A stretch of 63,953 nt of DNA, filler included, from Dirinaria sp. TL-2023a (lineage: Eukaryota): assembly GCA_051941275.1 (NCBI GenBank). It is 6 parts of 6 records of this genome, joined end to end, with 100 filler letters (N's around TTAATTAATTAA, not from the genome) between each part and the next. Parts side by side here need not be neighbours in the genome. Positions count along the whole stretch, not along the records: positions 1 to 10,592 come from JAVEBF010000921.1; 5 more parts are not named here. One strand, given 5' to 3'. Shown piece by piece: positions 1 through 53,403 of this stretch (the stretch's first letter is position 1; the number at the start of each line of letters is the position of its first letter). A model generated the notes under the pieces. It was not told the origin of the DNA. It saw only the letters and a list, made by a program, of their open reading frames with translations, and did no database searches. The translations under genes and the position numbers were made by a program.

Positions 1-4
1 AAAG

Positions 5-36
<32 letters not shown>

Positions 37-2910
37 CTACTGTAAAGTATCGCTCGAATTTTAATTTTAGAGTACATCTCCACAGATGGGGCATCTGAGT
101 TCGTGTTCGTCGCAGGATACTGTTCCTTTCGAAGTATATTCAGGTAGGTGCTCTCTGGAGCGATCTTCAGGCGTATTTTGTTATAGAGAGAGAAATCGTT
201 TGATCTATGAGGGTTTTCCTTTATGAGTTTAAAATACCGCGGTACTCGAGTATGTACGAGAGCATGGTTGTCTAGCTCACCATGAGCTGGATTTCGAGGC
301 GGAATTTGGCATTTATCTTCTGTCGAGTCTCGAAGCTCTTGTTCAGTACCGCAATTGAAGATCTATTTAGACAGTGTTCATTGTAGTTGCCCAGTGGATT
401 TGCTTGAATTTCCGTCTGAGACCGATTTTGATCCGAGGTCATTGTTCGAGACTCTATTGAAGTAGATACGCCTTTTAATACTGTCATTTAAAGCACATTT
501 AGACGTTCTTCATTGTACTTTCCTTTCGCTTTCGCTTAGCTGTCTGTCTGACACCTATTCTGGATTAATACCATTTTCGGAGTATCTGCGTCGAGGTAGC
601 TGCGCTTTTTAATGCTGTCATTAAAAGCATGTCTCTACACTCTTCGTTATAGTTCCCCCGGGACTTTGCCTGACTATCTGTCAAACAGCGGTTCATAGTC
701 GATGCCAGTATCCAAGCTTCCTCATTGTGGCCCGCAAGTTAGAGGTAAGCTCCTGCCGTTCCTGAGAATTCTTATCCACAGTTTGGAGTAAGGGATATAG
801 CTTGTGCCGGTCATCGAGGTTTGCAGGTAGTCTAAATGCGATGATGCTGCTAAAAATAGAGCTCTGTCTAGAGTAAGAACTCACTGGATCATTGAAGGAG
901 TGGAGAAGGAGCGGCTCGGAGCGTAGTTTTGGTTAAAGAAACACAAAAGTAACGTCCGCCTAAGTTTTCCATTTGATTTCTTGGCCAAGGTTTATGGAGA
1001 ATATTCACCGGGACGATTTACTCAATTTGAAGTCGAGCTTCAATCGATACAGCTTCGATAGTAAACTCGGTTGTCACCAGCACAAGCTCACTTCGCCGGG
1101 GTTGGCGTCCGTCAAGTCCAATCCACTGGGGCCAATAGAGCAATAGTACATCAACGATTAGAAGATTCTCGTCATGTAATTGATATGAATCCCCTTCGTT
1201 CTTTCGCGTGACTAATAATTTCCTCCTTGGTGTGGCTTCCATGGTGCTTCACGACCATGGTAGCTAGCATGGTGACTCTTTGCTAAGTGACATCGCAAGC
1301 CGAACAACCTTTGATCCTCGCCAGGGATTCAGCAATAGCTAGAAACTTGCCTCTGACGTAATAATTTGAACATCCTGTTTAGATGAAGCTGGCTACAAAT
1401 ACGCAGCGAGTAAGACTTATGACCTATGAGATTGGTAATATCAGTCAGTAGATCCACCATGGCAGATGTGAGCTCGATAAAGCGCTTTAGTCTCCGGTAT
1501 TGTGGTATGGCTGATCTTTAGGTTGCCTTGTATTGAATTGAAAGGCATGCTATGCTTGACTCTTACAATTATCGAGTCGTAGAAAGAAAACATGAGTTTA
1601 TTTCCGGTGCGAGAGCAGTTGTCACAGTGTCATCCCATCCAACAGTCGAAGGTAAACAAAAGAGAAGAATATATGTGGAAAGCAGAGGATGGCCGTTCAT
1701 CATTATAGAGTATAGTAATAATTAGAAGTATGATATGCCGTTGAATGATTGAAGCGTCGGTAGCCTGAAAAGAAACTAACATATGATACGACGAGGAACA
1801 GTGAATACTCAGGGTTGAGCAACTAGAAAAAGAAGAAGCTTTGTGACCGGACAAGATTTTTGAACATGCGGCCAAGCGACGCGCTAAATTCGAAGCAGAA
1901 GCAAAAGATATTGAGAAATGTTAATTGCGCTTCGCTGAAGCTGGTGAAGACTTTAAAGTTCGACAAGGGTACTTTTATCTGTGGTCAATCAATGAGTTGA
2001 GTTTCGTAAAGGATGGTAGCTTGAGCTTCTCTCATGGACGAAAGGCCACAGTGAATGCGAAGTAAAGATCAATGGCTGTCTTGAATCAAGTTGCACAGGG
2101 CATCGCTTCAGCCCAAGTGAAGAGATTATCAATGCCCATGATCCTCAAAGATCGTCCGTAAGGAGTAGGCAGACAAAACGAGTAGATGTCAGAGTAGGCA
2201 ATTCATTGCCGTGAGTTCTCCTAAAGTTGGCGACGATATTGAGAAGGTGAGAAGTTGAGTCGTATTACCAGTACATTTGCAGTCGTGGTGTAGAAGCCCA
2301 TTCAACTTCCCACTGAAAAAGTTGTTGCTTTTTATTGAAGCACAGAGCACCGTGTTTATACGGGCTCACCACAAGATCTCTAGCCGTTAGCTTCCTTTTT
2401 CAGTATTCTACAGCCACTTTGCGATATCCAATCAATGCAACGTGCCATGATGATTCCTCTAGATGCATTATAGATGTATTCGAATCTCGAAAGGACTCTT
2501 TTGCAGATGCAAAACCTCTCAAGATGAACATTATCCGAAGGTAGGTTTGGGATAAGTGAATTACTTGCCCAAAGCTTGATCGCATTCTGGATCCACGTGC
2601 CATGGGGTCTTTGCGAGGAATTCGCTAGACCGATAGCGGCTGAGAGATATTTGGCGTTGCTACAGCTGTCATGCTTATAGTCCCCATATTGAGCACGGAT
2701 AATATGCAGCTTTTAACTAGCAAGTACCTTTTTGCGTTCGAGGAGCAAAACCGGCCCGGAGCGTCTATTGCCGCTAGCGACTCAACTCTTGCGCTGTGTT
2801 CGCGGTTGGCTATTCCTATGTCCAGAGCAATCTCAGTTCCACGATCGCAATTCTTTCGCTTTTCGAGGCGAGCTTTCTAGTCTCCCTGTTTGAATAGACC
2901 TACGGCCTTT

Positions 2911-5024
2911 TCAGACTCCGATCTCTGCGTGGATTGAATTAATGAAGCGACATCGGTCAATCACTTTCTCCCATGCCAGGGCTTGTTCTAGCTTCGATAG
3001 TCGGACATGAGCAGACTGGTTAATTATTCTTGCGGCACCACTTCCATATGGGCCGCCAAAGACGTACAAATTCAACTCTTCCGGGTACTCGCTATTCAGT
3101 GTTTGACCGGCTTGTCCTGCATATGCATCAGGCCATTGAGTGGGGACTCGGCCGTGAGAGAACGAAGGATCTCCCGTATGAGCGAACGCTGCGGCACTTC
3201 CGCTCAGCAACGAAGAAAGAGCTTCCTGGGCTAAGCTGTTGTCGCCCCCAAACGTTACGTTTTCATTCATGAAATAAGGGATATCGGATAGATGGCTAAC
3301 GCGCCATTGAGGAACACCCATCTCATGGAATATTGGCTCGAACTTGGTCTGATTCATATCGTAGAGACGGACGCTTGAGCCTCCGTGTCGCGTGTATTGC
3401 CATGTGAAATCTATGACCGGACATGTAAACCATATGTCGCGATTCATTTGCGCTGCCCTGTAGTATTGTGCCGTAGCGTCTTGGCCTGGGCGGACCAGAT
3501 GGGTGAAGTCGGACTCCGGGTACAGAGCGAGAAGACTCCGTATCGAAGACTGTGAGAGACCAAGGACGAATGTACCGAAACTTGCAACTACGGAAGCGTC
3601 GTCTGTGATAGTTGGCTGGGCATACCAGGCGCCATCGTTGGTCACCCAGGAGCCTATGATGGGTATGCCTGAAAATGGTAAGATTCACAGTCTTTGCACT
3701 GGGTTGGAACAATAAACCTTTTACGAAACTGCCCTGCCGCAGTAGCAAAGACGGCCGGGTGGCAATATAGTCACCGTCGTAGCTAGGATAGAAGGCAAGC
3801 TCGCCAAAAGGTGGTCTTATTCTCCGGGAAAGCTCTACAGATGTGTTCATCAATTTTTCAAGCGGGACGCTTCGCAGACAGGCCAGCCCCGCCTCTGGAG
3901 CCGAATGATTTAGCGTACAGCCAACAGAGTTGGCAACTGTGGCGGTATTGTTCGCCACGAGGCCACTCATTGTATTGAAGTTGGTCCCAGAAGCTCCTGA
4001 CATCATCCTATGCGTCTGTCAGCTTCAGCTTCTTGTAGTCAGTATCTCTCTTACATCGCTTTTTGGAATGGGACTCCGCGTTTGCCTGAATAGGAAACGA
4101 GGTGTAAAGCGATTGAGGCAGCTCCGACGCTTTGACCCACGGCAACAACATTATCTGGGTCACCACCAAAAGCTGCAATATTGTCGTGAACCCCTATTCA
4201 ATGTATTAAGCTTAGCAAGACATATCTTGACAAACCCATATCAACTCACATTCAAACGCTGCGCGCTGGTCTCTTAGTCCAACGTTGCCTTGCGTTGTAT
4301 ACTCTAGAGCTCTCATGTTGGCGAAACCGAATACTGTGTTTCGTGTTAATCCGCGAGGATCATCTCTTAGGATTTGGACAATTACGTACTGCCCAATCGA
4401 TAATTGATCCCCACATAGATTACAGGCTGGCCGTTCAAATTGGCTTGATGCAAAAGGCCGTCCGGAGTATAGAGTTGATCTGCAGCGCTTCCTAGCGCAT
4501 CTCCACCTGGACGTCTTTAGTACCTGAAATGTCGGTCTTGGGTGATGGCTCTGCGCACCACCATGTATCCACACTAATACCGGCAACCTCGCTGATTGTT
4601 GTGTGCCAGATATTCGAGCAATCCTCAGGCTGAGGCAATTTTCACTCACATTGGTAATGGGACTTGTGAAAGGCAGTGGAGGTCCTCCCGTCGCTTGCGG
4701 ACACCAGGCGCCAGGCGTCGTAGCATCGACGACGGTGCCTGGTTCGGGTAGGTATGGGACTGGAGGAGCGAAGCGATTCTGGCCCGACGTATCCTCTGCG
4801 TAGAAAATATTATGGAATTGATCAATGCCATTTTCCGTGACTCCGTGATATGACACCTGGTTTTGCGCGTTCTTCACAATTGGAAGTGAGCCGTTCAATA
4901 TGCCGGACAGAGGACCGAAAAGAGGGATATAGCTGCGATTCACTCTCATAGCTATGAGAACAACCAGCGCAGCGAGAAAGGTGAAAGCCCAAGCGTAACG
5001 GCCTGGGCTTAGGTGAGAAGCCAT
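2911..5024 (-). CDS. Type-B carboxylesterase/lipase (COesterase family), multi-exon, N-terminal hydrophobic anchor/signal
   Basis: Exons give RFAPP, SENCLSL, PVLVWIHGG, NVGLRDQRAAFE and WVHDNIAAFGGDPDNVVAVGQSVG (nucleophile elbow GxSxG near 4120-4140), plus VSHLSDIPY (catalytic His region). Split over ORFs 4212-5024, 3323-4006 and 2911-3645 by introns. Confidence 0.9.
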
Positions 5025-6063
5025 CCCTTAAGAGACCAGGAAATTAGGAATAGAGCAAATTATTGGAACCTCAAACACTCAAGCGACAAGCTTTTGGCGA
5101 CACATGGCAATGGGCGAATAAAGGGCGAATCCAGTCGGTACCTTGGGAGTTGTGGATGGTTTTATGGGCTAGGATATTCTCAGATCCTCCGACTGGATCC
5201 ACCCGCTGGGGCAATGGCTGACTGGGTTTCATTGCGACCACTCAGCCTCCAGTATCAGGGGCGTTTCGGCGGGTTGATGCTGTGGCCCGCGTGCGATCGT
5301 GCATAATTACGGTTATTTACGGCGGTAATTTTCATTAGTGTGGGCTGTGCATGCACAATTGCTTCCTTTCGCATATTGTACGCGTAACCTGTATTCCGTA
5401 CTTCGTACTAGTAGTACCCCGTACCAAAGGAGAATTCCATTCCATGCTCTTGGTCGGCAACTCTTCAAAACATTTCACTGCCTTCTCCTCAATGTTTTGC
5501 ATGCGCACAACGATAATATCGCTCAGGGGTTCGAGTATGAGCTTGGATTCGTAAAATGGCTCTCCTCTACATACATACGGAGCTGCATGAACTCAGTACG
5601 AGGCAAAGCTACGCTGAAGCGTAGCCTGTACACTTCCATAGTATACTAGCATTAACCTATCATAACCATCTTCATGTTCATCCCTATCATCATCCCCATC
5701 ATCATCCACATGCGCCGCTATTTCTCCTTTCTCAGCGTCCAGCCAAGATTTACAGCGAGCAAAGAGCCCAATCATCACGAGCTTATCGACTGCGTGTAGG
5801 ATGCCTCGAACCCATGTTCCCACTCACTGCTGGTGCACTAGACCATTGAGGTATCATGAGAGATGTTGCTCTGTACGAGAATGCCATGTTCCGTCGGTGA
5901 CTGTAAGTGGGGGTACAGATTTTGGGACATGGTCGAGATGGTCGTTTCGATGCTAGGGTCGAAACGTTTCGCCTGAGGGTAAGGTGGCTTCGCATGCCTA
6001 AGAATCTGAATCAGCACAAGTGCCTTGATGGTCGTTGCAAGACAAATAGATGGTCTGGCCGAC

Positions 6064-7424
6064 TCACAATTCTTTGAAACTTGAGGAGCTATCACTGTCG
6101 GAATAAGGTAACCGGTGTTTTTTGTTCGCTCGCAGCCAGCTGAAATTCAGCAGTCTCTTTTGACTTTCGAAGGATTTAAGGCTGCGAGGAATTTTGGTGG
6201 CAATGGGAAGCAACGTCGGCAGACATGCGCACAGCAGAGCCACGTTCAATTCAATCAGGCTCCACAATAGGAAGATCGTAAAGTCCTCTAAACCGCGTCA
6301 TCAGTGAATGGCCCTCATAACTACCTTATCTACTTACGAATGAAGTCGGGGTTCGATTCTTTCTCTGTTGGGAAAATAGTCAGCGCTAAGAACTTATGAC
6401 GTTCGAAGCACACGAGCGTACCGTAAGACGTAACTAGGTACGCAACCATGCGCGCAATGCCAGCACCGATAGCACTTTGATCAAATCAGCATAAAGGTCA
6501 TCGGTATAGAGGATAATGGTACTGACAAGAAACCAACGAGGAACATAGCACTGATTGCAAGCTTCCTTCGAACACTCATTTGGAGCGACCAGATCTAGAA
6601 GTAATCAGCATGGAGTGCGTCCAGAAGGTCTCAATCGGCACGTACCATCGGCATCGGCATAGCAATGATTAAGATATCAGTGATGATATCAGTCGCAGTG
6701 AACACGGTCAGCATGTTCAGCGTATTTGAACATTGCGTCAAGAAGATTCCGATGGGCGCCCAATTAAGGCTCCAGTCCAATCCACACTGGAATACTGTTG
6801 CGAAAAAGAAAGCCGTGCTCCATGCAATCGTAACGCCAATCATGACCCAGCTAATGATGTTGAAGGTCTGAACATGGCCAAAGATTCGACGCCACAGGAA
6901 TAGGATCGACAATTTGATCAATCCGAAAGCAATCTTTTCCGTGGTTTGGAAGCCGTACTTGTACTGCGTGCCCAGGTTGTAAGACACCATGGCCACAAAG
7001 ATTTACACAATACGTACCTTCTCAGCCTGATGCTCTGTTTCTGTCGAGATGGGCCAGTCATTGACGACGGGCGAGTGGCCAGTGATGACATGCTGCGCGC
7101 AACCTATCACAGCTTCAATCAGTCACTGGGAAAATGAACAGGTTTTCAATCACGTACCAGCCAGAAACATCATGTTAAGGGCAATGACAAAGACCTTGGC
7201 AAGGCATATGGTTAGTCGCTGCATGCATGTAGGACTGCGGCACTCTTGAAGATTCCACGTACCAAAGAAGCAGCAGCTAACCAGTCGTCCGCCTGAAACT
7301 GTAGGCCTTTAAATCTGCGGGCACAGAAACGTAGAACCACGGCGGTCGACGAGGTGATGGAAAAGATGATACACATCGCGATGAGACCACCGCGATCATC
7401 AACTTTCGCGAAGGAGTAACCCAT
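6064..7424 (-). CDS. PTH11-like / fungal rhodopsin-domain integral membrane protein, multi-exon
   Basis: Exons encode VVLRFCARR..ADDWL, GLIKLSILFLWRRIF, TDIITDILIIAMPMP and WSLIELNVALLCACLPTL, which are hallmark motifs of this family. The 3' end is approximate. Confidence 0.85.
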
Positions 7425-9138
7425 GATGTGCTATTGTCTAGAGCTTTACAACATCGATATAGATAGAACTGTTTTGGACGGAATAATCATGAATTTCCAC
7501 ATTGGAGATTTGGAAAATACAATGAAATGCGAACAGCAGCTTGAGAATAAGGCAACTTATTTCAATCGGTACCTTATGAATCACTAGCTTGCGAGAGCCA
7601 GGTACTACAGCTATGTCCTTGACAGGCATGTTGGCCCCCATCAAGCACGTGGAACTACCAAAAGAGCATGGATCATCATGATCTTCGCCAAACTGTCAGA
7701 GAACATCCCAACAGCGCGGCCAATGTGGTGAACATTGCCAGAGAAAGAGGAAGGCCTAGGTAATGTCCCTGGAATGGCTGTTTTTGCAATCGAATCACTT
7801 TTGAGCGCCTTAATTGTGAATGCCGCTACTGAACTTGTGTTACGGTGGACGGGAAACACAGAGACCAAATATTTCGCGTGTGCCCCAACGAGAACGAAGA
7901 ATTATGTTTCAGCTTTACGCATTGTGACGGAATCCGCTTGTACTGTAGGACGATGTCGCGGTAGAAGAGGACGGATAAAACAGGGTTAAACTACGGCGTT
8001 ACGGGAGTCCCTGAGAGGCTGGAAATTAGTTCTGCCCGCTGCCGTTATCCGGGCCGGTCCTGAGACCGCAAGGGCCGAGCGGACAGCGCCATTAAAAGCC
8101 TATAGAGGCCACAGTACACTCCAGCCCCCTTGTTATGAGGAATATTCGCAATAACACTCTGCAAAGCATGCCGCTTCAAGCCTTCCAATGAACCAGCAGC
8201 TCAACTTTTCGTCTACTGAATCCATTCTGATTCCGAAGACGGTACGGCGCGCTGAGTGCAGCGTTCCTACCCCTTTAATGACCGACCGACCGACCAACCG
8301 ACCGACCGATTCCCGCAGTTGGTCGGTCTTGTGTTCTTATTCTTGTGCGATGTAGCCAAAAGTGATGATATTTACAGTGGCTCGTCTCCCTTTCTTTTCT
8401 ATTTAATTACACTCCTTGCTCCGAAAAACAGTATCAATACCGAGCGAGGAGTGTCTGGATAGGCTACATACGGAGATCTAGTAAAAGGCTTCATCCGCCG
8501 AGCACCTTCCTGAAAAGGCATCTCTTCCGCCCCCAGTCTTCTGATGTGCAGCAACCTTGATCTCTAGCTGCTTGCCGGATCGAGGATTTGTTTATTTATA
8601 TGCGCCACCAATCGAAGATGTGCGCTTGCTCGCGATACAGTGCACAAATCTCTGATCCTCCAACATGGCGAATGCAGACGATACAAAAATGAAGTCAACG
8701 TATGCCCGATGACGTGCGTGATAAGGTATTTACACAGTCGTGATACATGCATCCTTTTCGCAAGAGCTCGGGATCGGCAGTGACACTGCCCCATGTTCAG
8801 AGGATGGCTGGTTACAATTGAGCCACGCTTGCGTGTGGACATGACGTCTTTCATCCTGCCGAAAGAGGAGGATGATATGTACGAAGCTGCGCAGCCGCAC
8901 AGCGAGATGCACGTCACAGGGGTTGTAGTTGTTGGAGGATGGAAGTCAAATAATGCGTAGATCAATCGACAATCGTTTGATGTCTCGCATGGGCGCAAGA
9001 ACCATATTGATTCGAGAGAATTCGAATGACCCTTTCTGCCCTGTACCTGGGGGAAGACTGAAACCCCACAGCAAACCTAGCACGAGTTTGTGGTAAAACG
9101 ATGTTATGCTGATAAAGATATTACGCAATAATACAACA

Positions 9139-9993
9139 ATGGAAAAAGAAAGGCTGTTGGAGAATGACGAAGACCCCACGCCGACTGAAAACGTCAAGGT
9201 AGAAAGACGACAGTCTACTCGCTCTCATATCACTCCATTCAGACTATCTGCATTTCTCTTCCTCTGCTCTCTCTGCCTCAATGGCGCTTTGGCTTGGAAA
9301 CTGTTTCGCTCGCGGAATAATAAACCTCCAGAAATCTCCCAACATGGTAAATCCCCCTTACCCATCCAAATCCACAAAACCCCCCCCAGCAACAAATCCA
9401 ACTCATACTTAAAAAAAAAAAAAAAAACAGCCTCCCTAACCCGCACCCTCCCCCAACCCTACTACGCCGAAACCCCCTTTGGCGGGAACCCGAACACGAC
9501 ACTCGAAGCATCGCTATGGTACTCCATAGACATCGACAGCGGCGTGATCAGCCTGCCCGACAGCTACACCACCTCGCACTCCCTCCAGCCCGCGCAACGC
9601 TTCCCCTGGGACCGCACACGCGGGATCTACATCGTGCACGGGTACCACAACCTGCACTGCCTGAAAATCATCTACATCGCCATGCACGAGTGGCGGACGG
9701 GGCGGGCTCAGAGCCGGAAATGGAGACACATCAGCCACTGCTTCGATGCGCTGCGGAGGCAGGTGCTGTGCGATGCGGACGACACGCCAAGGGCGGTGCG
9801 GAAGGGATTCGAGGGGGTGAGTGGGATCGGGCAGGAGAGGGTGTGTAGGGATTGGGGACGGTTGGAGGAGTGGGCGAGGGGGAATACGGCGTGCTATAAA
9901 AGGCCGGAACCGCCGGTGGAAGGGATGCGGAATATTGAGAAGTATAGCCATTGTCCTGAGGGCGCGGGGTATGTGGTTCCCGATGATTTGTGA
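9139..9993 (+). CDS. DUF3328/UstYa-family oxidase (dikaritin RiPP tailoring enzyme type)
   Basis: N-terminal single TM helix (FLFLCSLCLNGALAW), motifs HGYHNLHCLK and HISHCFDALRRQVLCDADDTP, then GQERVCRDW. A probable 84-nt in-frame intron at 9347-9430 (GTAAAT...AAACAG) removes the poly-Lys artefact. Confidence 0.93.
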   Translation: MEKERLLENDEDPTPTENVKVERRQSTRSHITPFRLSAFLFLCSLCLNGALAWKLFRSRNNKPPEISQHGKSPLPIQIHKTPPSNKSNSYLKKKKKTASLTRTLPQPYYAETPFGGNPNTTLEASLWYSIDIDSGVISLPDSYTTSHSLQPAQRFPWDRTRGIYIVHGYHNLHCLKIIYIAMHEWRTGRAQSRKWRHISHCFDALRRQVLCDADDTPRAVRKGFEGVSGIGQERVCRDWGRLEEWARGNTACYKRPEPPVEGMRNIEKYSHCPEGAGYVVPDDL

Positions 9994-10199
9994 TGGTTTT
10001 TTTAAATGATGGGCGATGAATTGAAAGGTTTTTGTTTTTTGAGGTTTCGATGTGTGGATGACAATAGAGAAGCGTGTAATATACCAACATGTGTTGTATA
10101 GCATCTATATGTCCTAATATTACATTCGATGCCACATCTTAATAGAACATCCCCCAGAAAAAAACATCAAAATTAAAATCCTCCTTCCTGACGAAAGAA

Positions 10200-10592
10200 T
10201 CAAAAGCCATCAGCAACATCAACGCCCTCGCCTTCCCTCCTCACCACCCTCTTGAACCCATCAGCCACATCCACGCCCTCACCATCTCTCCTCCTGAACC
10301 CGTCCGCAACATCAACGCCCTCCTCTCCTCTCCTGACCACCCTCTTAAACCCATCCGCTACATCTACTCCTTCATCATCTCTCCTCCTGAACCCGTCCGC
10401 AACGTCAACGCCTTCTCCCTCCCGCTTTATTTTAAACCCATCAGCCACATCCACGCCTTCGCCTTCCCGCTTGAATTTAAAGCCGTCCGCGACATCTACC
10501 CCTTCCCCTTCCCGCTTGAACTTGAAACCGTCCGCGACATCCACGCCTTCGGTGTCGCGTGGGATGGGGGATGTTCGGATCATGGGGTTTAC
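10200..10592 (-). CDS. Kex2-processed repeat precursor peptide (putative RiPP precursor), 8 x EGVDVADGF; 5' end probably truncated by contig end
   Basis: Frame is open to the gap (..VNPMIRTSPIPR). Eight identical EGVDVADGF units are separated by KFKR/KIKR/RRR/KRVVRR, with a stop directly after the last Phe. Nucleotide differences between cores are synonymous in this frame. Adjacent to the DUF3328 gene. Confidence 0.88.
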   Translation of the reverse strand, partial: VNPMIRTSPIPRDTEGVDVADGFKFKREGEGVDVADGFKFKREGEGVDVADGFKIKREGEGVDVADGFRRRDDEGVDVADGFKRVVRRGEEGVDVADGFRRRDGEGVDVADGFKRVVRREGEGVDVADGF

Positions 10593-10692
10593 NNNNNNNN
10601 NNNNNNNNNNNNNNNNNNNNNNNNNNNNNNNNNNNNTTAATTAATTAANNNNNNNNNNNNNNNNNNNNNNNNNNNNNNNNNNNNNNNNNNNN
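10593..10692. other. Artificial contig linker (N + TTAATTAATTAA + N)
   Basis: 100 nt with a six-frame stop motif, identical to four other linkers. Confidence 0.98.
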
Positions 10693-11318
10693 GCTCTGGT
10701 CGTCGGGGCTGACTGCACACTAAAGCTCGAGGCATACGTTAACTGCCAGGCCTACAAGCCCCATGTAAGTGGTTCTCGTTGGCTATAGATACAGTACCTT
10801 TTGCTTCCCTTTGTAACATGGCAGACAGGAAGACACTTCACGTCTTCGCTTTCCTGCCTGCATTGGTGCTGCAGCGGGTTTCGACGTAATGAGTCGTGCA
10901 GAGCAGAGCCTTACTTGTATCTCTTTCAAGGCCATCTTATATTACTGAAAAGGTCTACTGCTTTAATCTTTTTACATCTATGATAACTTACACCGCCAAC
11001 ACGAGCAAGGTTGATAGCGTATTGTACTACAACCACAAACCGAGCGTAAGGTGCTTGCTGCCCTCAGCTGCGCCAGTCACCTTGTTCGGCTTCGGCTACC
11101 AGAAATGAATCATGTCTTACATACCTACAGTACCTTAAGCTGCTGTCCCTCTGCACAACGATCCATCCGTCGGCCACAAGGTTGTGACTGCGTATAAAAG
11201 CAAGTACCTTAAAAGCGGCTACTGCCACTGGCACCTCCACCATCAAGATTATTGGGCTGCTTGTGACTTCAGTCACAAGACCTTTCTCAAATTCTGGAGC
11301 GCGATCAGTCTCGTCACA

Positions 11319-12300
11319 ATGCCCTTTGACAGCACGGCAACTAGTGAGCAGGTGTTCGCGGCCTTTGCTCCATTCGTTCAAGATCGCACGTTCGTCATCA
11401 CCGAGGTTGGAAAGCCTTCTATCGAAAGCTCCATGGCTATAGAGCTTGTCAAAGCCCCATCAGCACATGTCCTCATCGCATTCAGGATCGCTATCAAGGT
11501 TGATCTTGTTTTGTCAACAGCCCGTGGACTCAACCCCGCAGTCAAGGCAACCTTTGTTCAGGTGGACTTATCCGATCACAATTCAGTGCGATCAGTCGCC
11601 TCCGGGATAGCGACTGCGATTGAAAACAAAACTTGAAGTTATCATCAACAGCGCTGGAAACATGGCCTTGAAGGAATACACATTCGACAAACAGGGCATC
11701 GAGATGCAATTGTCGGCCAACCACGTTGGACACTTCTTACTGACGAACCTTCTCACAGCTGCTCTCTTAAATAGCGCTAAAGGTCCACATGGAGCCCGCA
11801 TTGGCAATTTCTCTAGCGCAGGTTACCAGATCTCTCCTGTTCGCTTTAAAGATCATTCATTCTCGGACGGTAAAGCATATGACCCTTGAACGCTTACAGG
11901 CAAGCCAAAGCGGCTAAGATCCTTTTCACCTACGGTTTGATCGACCGACACAAGCAGCAAGGAATTATCTCGTTCGCTTGCCAACGGGTATCTAACTTTG
12001 ATACCAAGCTGGGCACCCACCTAAACATCGACGACTATCTCGATATTGTGCCGTTGACAAAGCGCAACATAGGCAAAGACTTCCTTTCAGTGTTGGAGAT
12101 GAGCTAAGAATCAAGACTTACGAGCAGATCGGCGCCACTCCTCTGATTGCCGCCCTCGACCCGGATCTCACTACGCAGGCTCCCGCTTACTTACAAAACA
12201 ATCAGGTTGTGCAGCCTGCCGTCGAGCATGCATATGACCCCGAGCACGTGGAAAAATGCTGGCAGCTAAGTGAGGGAGTTGTCGGCTAGGAGTTCAAACC
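11319..12300 (+). pseudogene. Short-chain dehydrogenase/reductase (retinol dehydrogenase-like) pseudogene
   Basis: SDR motifs VDLSD, IINSAGNM, QLSANHVGHFLLTNLL, AYRQAK and CWQLSE. Frameshift near 11620-11636, in-frame TGA at 11887 (YDP*), TAG near 12287, and a degenerate Rossmann motif (TEVGKPSIES). Confidence 0.8.
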
Positions 12301-21280: not shown

Positions 21281-21380
21281 NNNNNNNNNNNNNNNNNNNN
21301 NNNNNNNNNNNNNNNNNNNNNNNNTTAATTAATTAANNNNNNNNNNNNNNNNNNNNNNNNNNNNNNNNNNNNNNNNNNNN
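21281..21380. other. Artificial contig linker
   Basis: N + TTAATTAATTAA + N. Confidence 0.98.
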
Positions 21381-31968: not shown

Positions 31969-32068
31969 NNNNNNNNNNNNNNNNNNNNNNNNNNNNNNNN
32001 NNNNNNNNNNNNTTAATTAATTAANNNNNNNNNNNNNNNNNNNNNNNNNNNNNNNNNNNNNNNNNNNN
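31969..32068. other. Artificial contig linker
   Basis: N + TTAATTAATTAA + N. Confidence 0.98.
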
Positions 32069-42650: not shown

Positions 42651-42750
42651 NNNNNNNNNNNNNNNNNNNNNNNNNNNNNNNNNNNNNNNNNNNNTTAATT
42701 AATTAANNNNNNNNNNNNNNNNNNNNNNNNNNNNNNNNNNNNNNNNNNNN
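42651..42750. other. Artificial contig linker
   Basis: N + TTAATTAATTAA + N. Confidence 0.98.
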
Positions 42751-53303: not shown

Positions 53304-53403
53304 NNNNNNNNNNNNNNNNNNNNNNNNNNNNNNNNNNNNNNNNNNNNTTAATTAATTAANNNNNNNNNNNNNNNNNNNNNNNNNNNNNNNNNNNNNNNNN
53401 NNN
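53304..53403. other. Artificial contig linker
   Basis: N + TTAATTAATTAA + N. Confidence 0.98.

What the first reader, a model, noticed from the sequence alone, without database searches (positions are those of the whole stretch)
10200..10560. Tyr-free, acidic, Phe-terminated core implies non-canonical DUF3328 chemistry
Seen: the invariant nonapeptide has no Tyr, Trp, Cys, Ser or Thr. Its only aromatic residue is the C-terminal Phe. Established: most dikaritin macrocycles are aryl ethers from a Tyr phenol. Victorin is the Phe-terminated exception, and DUF3328 enzymes also hydroxylate, desaturate or halogenate. Inference: this enzyme must do something else, for example Phe or Asp beta-hydroxylation, Val desaturation, or a cross-link after Phe oxidation. 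By analogy with the acidic 'VED' leader of UstA, EGVD may be the recognition sequence and VADGF the core, but the boundary cannot be fixed from sequence.
Basis: inference. Interest (0 to 1): 0.75.

Follow-up and report, generated by a model that had tools for sequence, protein, structure and literature searches.

The report
Tyrosine-free fungal peptide, two copper oxidases
This fungus has a repeat-peptide gene between two copper-oxidase genes, a three-gene unit also found in other moulds and lichen fungi, and because the peptide lacks the tyrosine that such enzymes usually cross-link, the unit likely makes a modified peptide by different chemistry.

Summary
Observation confirmed: eight identical EGVDVADGF repeats differ only at third codon positions and lack Tyr, Trp, Cys, Ser and Thr. 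The window joins separate contigs, and the gene is cut at a contig end. Its signal-peptide exon lies on contig C1207, and RNA contigs of a close relative splice across the gap. The oxidase A / precursor / oxidase B unit recurs in 3 of 3 distinct metagenome loci long enough to show it. Precursor and oxidase A pair up across lichen fungi, Penicillium and Xylariales. Homologues conserve [VI]-x-[VI]-[AGS]-D-[GA]-F; E and G vary, so 'EGVD recognition' is not supported. No tyrosinase lies on either contig. The likely product is a peptide oxidised at its Asp-Gly-Phe end, probably ring-closed on Phe as in victorin; no chemistry was shown. Tyr-free repeats are common (about one third of DUF3328-linked precursors), and non-Tyr DUF3328 chemistry is known. 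The motif was not found in the papers searched; one member is catalogued as a stand-alone precursor. The scan had no earlier look-alike. Verdict: new variant of a known kind.

The parts
10200..10591 (-). Precursor exon 2: short pro-region plus 8 x EGVDVADGF separated by dibasic spacers, ending at Phe-stop
   Evidence: covered by RNA contigs of a relative about 91% alike
10592..10592 (-). Last base of the precursor's intron (G of the acceptor) at the end of contig C921. Exon 1 (ATG, signal peptide, phase-1 GT donor) is off-window at G000:C1207:8184-8262 (+). Oxidase B (second DUF3328) is at C1207 about 7150-6242 (-), divergent, 1033 nt from the precursor ATG
   Evidence: the RNA loose end at 10591 equals the last 8 nt of exon 1
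9139..9993 (+). Oxidase A: DUF3328/UstYa protein, 256 aa after removal of intron 9347-9430, one predicted N-terminal membrane helix, convergent with the precursor (206 nt between stops)
   Evidence: Pfam PF11807 E 1.3e-24; gene model, same length and junction as relative P0008
9646..9660 (+). First HxxHC copper motif (HNLHC)
   Evidence: motif role from PMC12435403
9727..9741 (+). Second HxxHC copper motif (HISHC)
6064..7424 (-). Fungal rhodopsin-domain (Pth11-like) membrane protein gene, a possible accessory gene; ends approximate
   Evidence: PF20684 E 3.1e-20; a 61% identical gene lies in the same place and orientation in L040
2911..5024 (-). Carboxylesterase gene with GxSxG motif at about 4137, a possible accessory gene; ends approximate
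   Evidence: PF00135; 65-70% identical gene upstream of oxidase A in L042/L043
10593..10692 (.). Artificial spacer (N44-TTAATTAATTAA-N44) joining unrelated contigs; DNA right of it is not part of the locus

Best explanation
A secreted eight-repeat precursor lies between two DUF3328 oxidase genes in a conserved unit, and the two predicted copper enzymes likely oxidise the Asp-Gly-Phe end of each released repeat and probably close a small ring on the terminal Phe instead of on a Tyr. Shown: gene structure, splicing in a close relative, intact HxxHC motifs in both oxidases, conserved linkage and the conserved heptapeptide. Inferred from family knowledge: ER entry, Kex2 cutting at KR/RR and trimming of basic residues to expose Phe, and membrane-anchored dicopper C-H oxidation in the secretory lumen. 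Inferred and untested: one oxidase oxygenates (Phe ring or a beta-carbon) and the other couples Phe to the beta-carbon or carboxylate of Asp(-2), or to the beta-branched Val/Ile(-4). The variable acidic N-terminal residues would be trimmed away, and the alternating V/I-x-V/I stretch would serve partly as the docking strand.
For: Linkage: the motif is present in 5 of 5 metagenome loci with the closest oxidase-A matches (L040-L044; L042 and L043 are near-identical) and in 0 of 15 loci of more distant paralogues; 2 of 800 shuffled loci match. Adjacent locus tags pair oxidase and precursor in 3 named genomes (Penicillium verhagenii, Rostrohypoxylon, Parahypoxylon). Paired members are spread over the whole oxidase-A tree. 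Oxidase B lies divergent from the precursor in L040, L042/L043, L044 and this genome (77-81% identical over the last exon to L042/L044). D(-2) is kept in 133 of 136 units, G/A(-1) in 135 and F(0) in 136; 29 of 37 precursors end at Phe-stop. In loci found by the oxidase rather than the peptide, 12 of 14 units end in DGF. Position -3 can be Gly (13 units), which excludes it as a required beta-carbon partner. All five dikaritins known in 2022 are described as cyclised by UstYa homologues (PMC10512285). Victorin is cyclised between a C-terminal Phe side chain and an internal Leu (PMC9233826). Ustiloxin needs two UstY proteins plus a tyrosinase for its first cyclic intermediate (PMC6514808).
Against: No chemistry or product was observed. 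The DUF3328 reactions described in the papers read are mostly C(sp3)-H reactions, and no tyrosinase lies on C921 or C1207 to supply a phenol (8 matches in the genome, none on these contigs). No P450 ORF was seen there either (not searched by profile). The conservation counts are biased because the proteins were found with an ADGF-built profile and the strict unit pattern already required an acidic or Gly residue at -2. A looser pattern added 3 Tyr-ending units and 1 Ser-ending unit from one lineage. No hypervariable core exists, so the core/leader boundary cannot be read from variation. Oxidase A was not covered by the RNA contigs, so its expression is not shown.
Confidence: 0.48

Rival explanations
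1. Same three-gene pathway, but no ring: the two oxidases each make one open-chain change (beta-hydroxy or dehydro Asp, Phe or Val/Ile, or a chlorination), as CctR and PhomYc/d/e do.
For: CctR is a beta-carbon hydroxylase (PMC12435403). PhomYd makes dehydro-Asp and PhomYc dehydro-Ile (PMC10880069). No phenol and no tyrosinase is available. Two enzymes fit two independent sites.
Against: In phomopsin and victorin these changes decorate an already cyclised core. Linear intermediates were not found for epichloecyclin or ustiloxin and are thought to be degraded (PMC10540207). Small residues at -1 and -3 fit a tight turn (inference).
Confidence: 0.28
2. The oxidases oxidatively decarboxylate the C-terminal Phe to a styrylamide (enamide), with or without a further hydroxylation, much as plant copper cyclases are recalled to do in cyclopeptide alkaloids.
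For: Phe is the terminal residue in every strict unit and directly precedes the stop in 29 of 37 precursors. The DUF3328 site resembles the plant BURP copper site (PMC12435403).
Against: No DUF3328 decarboxylase appears in the papers read. A terminal aromatic followed by KR is also the ordinary layout of cyclised cores. Some spacers leave K-x after Phe once Kex2 has cut, so the carboxylate is not free at once in every unit.
Confidence: 0.1
3. The peptide is mainly a secreted signal, lightly modified or unmodified, sensed by the neighbouring rhodopsin-domain membrane protein; receptor fit, not enzyme chemistry, fixes the sequence.
For: The whole heptapeptide is conserved across distant fungi with no variable core. 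The rhodopsin-domain gene is syntenic in L040 at 61% identity. Most repeat precursors lack DUF3328 neighbours and include linear pheromones (PMC7329392).
Against: Two oxidases with intact HxxHC motifs flank the precursor in every locus long enough to show it. Rhodopsin-domain genes also sit beside motif-less paralogous oxidases (L045, L051). This rival is compatible with modification and differs only if the oxidases are dispensable.
Confidence: 0.09
4. The oxidases act on another substrate (a Tyr-containing precursor or a non-ribosomal compound elsewhere) and the repeat gene is only a neighbour.
For: The genome has 31 UstYa matches and other Tyr-containing repeat precursors on C402 and C2329. 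DUF3328 enzymes also serve NRPS and PKS pathways (PMC12048977).
Against: Those precursors have their own adjacent UstYa genes. No Tyr-repeat ORF was found on C1207 or near oxidase A. The linkage is conserved over 14 independent pairings.
Confidence: 0.05

Closest known systems
Victorin pathway (VicA plus DUF3328 VicY proteins), Cochliobolus victoriae
   Same: Kex2-type multicore precursor with a Tyr-free core ending in Phe; ring built on the C-terminal Phe side chain (PMC9233826 passages).
   Different: Different, acidic core; no chlorination or amine-oxidase genes seen on the two contigs; a widespread conserved unit rather than a host-selective toxin of one pathogen. The primary paper was not available, and VicY sequences were not compared.
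Ustiloxin (ustA, ustYa, ustYb, ustQ) and phomopsin clusters
   Same: Signal peptide, dibasic sites, acidic residues before the core and two DUF3328 genes next to the precursor. UstA cores are flanked by ED and KR (PMC6514808). Phomopsin DUF3328 enzymes desaturate Asp and Ile.
   Different: No Tyr in the core, no follower residues, no tyrosinase on either contig, and no methyltransferase or other tailoring ORFs seen.
Asperipin-2a cluster (aprA, aprY)
   Same: Minimal cluster without tyrosinase; core ends in Gly plus an aromatic residue; ethers formed at beta-carbons.
   Different: Asperipin uses Tyr phenols and one oxidase; here there is no phenol and there are two oxidases.
CctR, ApnU, AprY (characterised DUF3328 copper enzymes)
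   Same: One membrane helix and HxxHC(x)nHxxHC in both oxidases (PMC12435403).
   Different: Sequence distance to these enzymes was not measured: no reference sequences were available and no PDB chain matched. No characterised name appeared among 96 hits at E<=1e-30.
KEP catalogue of Umemura 2020 (PMC7329392)
   Same: One family member (RYP52811.1, Monosporascus) is listed with a DUF3328 gene nearby.
   Different: It is listed as stand-alone (type 0). A second member (ROW00561.1) is absent. The family and the three-gene unit are not described in the parts read.

Membership tests
KEP (Kex2-processed repeat protein) | N-terminal ER signal peptide | tested here: met
   Exon 1 on C1207 encodes a 26-aa hydrophobic N-terminus (mean hydropathy 2.2 over 12 aa; no SignalP run). 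It is spliced to the window exon in RNA of a relative, and the intron position matches L040, L041, L042 and L044.
KEP (Kex2-processed repeat protein) | Repeated units separated by KR/RR sites | tested here: met
   8 repeats, each pair separated by KR or RR
KEP (Kex2-processed repeat protein) | Actual cleavage by Kex2 and secretion | not testable with these tools
   needs peptidomics
Dikaritin (DUF3328-defined class) | DUF3328 gene(s) clustered with the precursor | tested here: met
   Oxidase A 206 nt from the precursor stop; oxidase B 1033 nt from its ATG; linkage conserved
Dikaritin (DUF3328-defined class) | Side-chain cyclisation by the UstYa homologue | not testable with these tools
   no product data
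Ustiloxin/phomopsin-type dikaritin (narrow definition) | Tyr in the core as aryl-ether donor | tested here: not met
   No Tyr in any repeat; the only Tyr is residue 2 of the signal peptide
Ustiloxin/phomopsin-type dikaritin (narrow definition) | Clustered tyrosinase | tested here: not met
   8 PF00264 matches in the genome, none on C921 or C1207; both contigs are short
DUF3328 copper oxidase | Pfam PF11807 above cut-off and two HxxHC motifs | tested here: met
   Oxidase A 87.7 bits, oxidase B last exon 52.6 bits (cut-off 25); both have two motifs; 40 of 41 aligned A homologues have two
DUF3328 copper oxidase | Copper- and O2-dependent activity as a dimer | not testable with these tools
   structure job did not return; needs assay
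Victorin-type | C-terminal Phe in a Tyr-free core | tested here: met
Victorin-type | Oxidases orthologous to VicY proteins | not tested
   no VicY sequence was available from any tool

The most novel reading that the evidence does not exclude
The two oxidases form a Tyr-independent cross-link by coupling the Asp side-chain carboxylate oxygen to the benzylic beta-carbon of the terminal Phe (C-H acyloxylation), giving an 11-membered Asp-Gly-Phe macrolactone. This would explain the fixed Asp and Phe, the small residue between them and the exclusion of Tyr, and the syntenic carboxylesterase would open or protect against the ester. It would be a new RiPP linkage in a pathway kept across three classes of ascomycetes. 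I recall no such DUF3328 reaction; this was not searched specifically.
Probability: 0.15. Interest if true: 0.85.

Novelty: new variant of a known kind. Interest (0 to 1): 0.56.

Why it matters
Only a handful of DUF3328-made ribosomal peptides have known structures (five in 2022, PMC10512285), and all but victorin depend on Tyr. How a Phe-terminated core is oxidised and closed is open, and victorin's cluster is large. This unit offers a minimal test case: two oxidases, one short fixed substrate and natural variants at each position. It also occurs in culturable moulds, for example Penicillium verhagenii with adjacent genes; oxidase A is also in P. roqueforti. Its conservation across lichen fungi, Eurotiales and Xylariales points to a conserved target or signalling role. 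One Penicillium-clade locus has a single-core precursor that repeat-based surveys would miss.

Tried and rejected
Tyr-containing precursor beyond the contig end: rejected after fetching all of C1207. DNA right of 10593 (the copper-ATPase-like ORF and others) as part of the cluster: rejected, it lies on other contigs. ATG at about 10583 as the start of a signal-less precursor: rejected, because RNA splices in the upstream exon. Alternative oxidase intron 9303-9389: rejected in favour of 9347-9430 (canonical donor; matches P0008). PDB sequence search with the oxidase profile: 0 matches at E<=0.1. ESM Atlas: generic UstYa clusters for the oxidase, and only sub-0.9 leads for a homologous precursor. 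AlphaFold job for oxidase A did not finish, so no fold search was run. The oxidase tree is only the quick tree, and its outgroup rows have very long branches (one probably mis-framed), so it was used only to see where paired members fall, not for rooting. Lack of RNA cover over oxidase A is not taken as evidence. Supplement searches for ADGF in PMC7329392 and PMC6339444 gave 0, but Table S2 of the first lists accessions rather than sequences, so this is weak. Victorin, AprY and multicore-review papers were not held. Five profile hits (P0121, P0123, P0126, P0131, P0134) were dropped before counting as unrelated long repeats or a different Tyr-containing repeat.

Full report
Observation. The minus strand from 10592 to the stop at 10200 encodes eight exact copies of EGVDVADGF separated by basic spacers, the last copy ending at Phe-stop. 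The copies are all different in DNA, and all nine variable columns are third codon positions, so the amino acids are being conserved. The pattern occurs only here in the genome (8 matches, 0 control).

The window is a concatenation. Positions 1-10592 are the whole contig G000:C921, and N-spacers separate it from unrelated contigs.

What lies beyond the break. Loci related to the neighbouring oxidase showed a second DUF3328 gene on the far side of the precursor. Its orthologue in this genome is on C1207, 77-81% identical over the last exon to L042 and L044. C1207 ends with an ATG, a 26-residue hydrophobic signal peptide, a phase-1 GT donor and a partial intron. The same intron position occurs in the precursors of L040, L041, L042 and L044. 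RNA contigs from four runs of one lichen-metagenome sample, about 91% alike, cover 10182-10591. In 3 of the 4 runs they continue into eight letters that equal the end of that exon, a word found once in the 8,284 bases of C1207. This shows a spliced form in a close relative and joins the two contigs. The joined model is one open frame of 156 aa with one Tyr, at position 2. No other repeat precursor was found on C1207.

The oxidases. Oxidase A (9139-9993, intron 9347-9430, 256 aa) scores 87.7 bits on PF11807, has a predicted N-terminal membrane helix and two HxxHC motifs. Oxidase B also has a predicted helix and both motifs. CctR shows this motif to be a binuclear copper site in a membrane-anchored dimer, and the paper notes the same for the halogenase ApnU and cyclase AprY (PMC12435403, parts 1 and 3 of 3 read). 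The closest named relatives of A are from lichen fungi (Lepraria, Loekoesia), then Penicillium, Aspergillus and Xylariales; none of 96 hits carries a characterised name. Class assignments of these genera are from my own knowledge.

Linkage. The peptide motif is present in 5 of 5 metagenome loci with the best oxidase-A matches (four distinct) and in 0 of 15 loci of more distant paralogues; many of those 15 are near-duplicates and four are contigs of about 2 kb or less. Shuffled loci match 2 of 800 times. Oxidase B is present in the 3 distinct loci long enough to show it; L041 is too short. Among database proteins, three named genomes have adjacent locus tags for oxidase and precursor, and three more named genomes and four unnamed records share a longest-contig length, which is weaker evidence. 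These pairs fall across the lichen, Penicillium/Aspergillus and Xylariales branches of a quick tree. A rhodopsin-domain gene (L040, 61%) and a carboxylesterase gene (L042/L043, 65-70%) upstream of A are each syntenic in one distinct locus, so they are possible accessory genes only. No tyrosinase lies on C921 or C1207.

Which residues vary. I used 37 precursors: the window, 33 of 38 database hits (5 dropped as unrelated) and 3 loci. They give 136 units under a strict pattern. Counting back from Phe: -8 is E in 41; -7 G in 67; -6 V/I in 134; -5 D in 119 (also V, A, N, E, G, Q, S); -4 V/I in 134; -3 A 113, G 13, S 8; -2 D in 133; -1 G 115, A 20; Phe in 136 although the pattern allowed Tyr or Trp. 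These counts are biased by an ADGF-built profile and by the pattern. A looser pattern gave 140 units: 136 ending in Phe, three in Tyr and one in Ser. All four lie in one lineage whose locus looks decayed. In the loci found through the oxidase, 12 of 14 units end in DGF, and 3 of 14 have Val at -5.

Mechanism. Signal peptide, Kex2 cutting and trimming of basic residues follow from family knowledge. Spacers such as KFKR or KLRR leave K-x behind Phe and need a further protease. The chemistry is inferred. I favour a ring on the terminal Phe (0.48): all five dikaritins listed in 2022 are cyclised (PMC10512285 passages); victorin closes on a C-terminal Phe side chain (PMC9233826 passages); and Asp, a small residue and Phe are fixed together. 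Gly at -3 rules that position out as a required beta-carbon partner, leaving Asp(-2) or Val/Ile(-4). Against this, no phenol or tyrosinase is at hand, and published non-Tyr DUF3328 reactions are open-chain: beta-hydroxylation by CctR and dehydro-Asp/Ile/Pro by PhomY (PMC10880069 passages). That gives the main rival 0.28. Decarboxylation to an enamide (0.10), an unmodified signal (0.09) and an unrelated substrate (0.05) are weaker. The boldest reading inside the ring model is an Asp-carboxylate to Phe beta-carbon lactone (0.15).

Novelty. The motif VDVADGF occurs in 0 papers of the held library. Searches combining ADGF with Kex2/DUF3328/UstYa, DUF3328 with copper or dikaritin terms, Phe/Asp hydroxylation and Asp-Gly-Phe (listing only) gave no description of this family. 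Most subscription papers, including the victorin, AprY and Nagano 2016 reports, could not be read, and sequences in figures or in supplements not held could list it. One member is catalogued as a stand-alone KEP with DUF3328 nearby. About a third of DUF3328-linked repeats lack Tyr (65.6% have it; PMC7329392 sections 6 part 1 and 7 read), so absence of Tyr alone is not rare. The lichen RiPP survey describes other clans without repeat precursors (PMC12048977, part 1 and passages). Earlier scan notes held no look-alike sequence.

Verdict. A real, expressed (in a relative), conserved three-gene DUF3328 RiPP unit with a Tyr-, Trp- and His-free heptapeptide core and unknown product. It works like a dikaritin pathway, fails the narrow ustiloxin/phomopsin definition, and most resembles victorin in its Phe end. 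New variant of a known kind; interest 0.56.

Noticed in passing
L042:7705-7990 (also L043): Only about 285 nt separate the esterase homology from oxidase A exon 2, against about 5.2 kb in the window. A deletion has likely removed the esterase 5' end, the rhodopsin-domain gene and the oxidase's membrane-anchor exon. The first two repeats of this locus's precursor are degenerate.
   Followed up: partly
L040:2222-2440 (-): The Penicillium-clade precursor has a single core (VVVADGF then stop), so repeat-based surveys would miss it.
   Followed up: partly
L010:118-633 (-) = G000:C402: Another repeat precursor, 10 x DAIAYPDSY, beside a UstYa gene. Its Asp-small-aromatic end echoes DGF, and database protein P0134 has AVAYPDGY repeats. 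Possibly a Tyr-bearing relative of this family.
   Followed up: no
L035:660-1238 (-) = G000:C2329: Repeat precursor with about 8 units of type DTYVGGVE beside a UstYa fragment.
   Followed up: no
L045:8600-9430 and L051:8600-10500: Sister oxidases (41-47% identical to A) lack the motif but have a convergent small ORF with a signal-like start and rhodopsin-domain neighbours. L045 also has P450-like, MFS-like and second DUF3328 ORFs.
   Followed up: no
G000 whole genome: 31 UstYa profile matches on about 15 contigs, a large DUF3328 repertoire for a 27.7 Mb assembly.
   Followed up: no
window 10593-10692, 21281-21380, 31969-32068, 42651-42750, 53304-53403: Five identical N44-TTAATTAATTAA-N44 spacers: the window is six contigs joined artificially.
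   Followed up: yes
window 11139-12289 (+): Short-chain dehydrogenase-like sequence split over several frames by stops and shifts, probably a pseudogene, on another contig.
   Followed up: no
window 10182-10591: The RNA sample holds two distinct precursor variants, one with an extra repeat-length insertion near 10385, suggesting alleles or strains with different repeat numbers.
   Followed up: no
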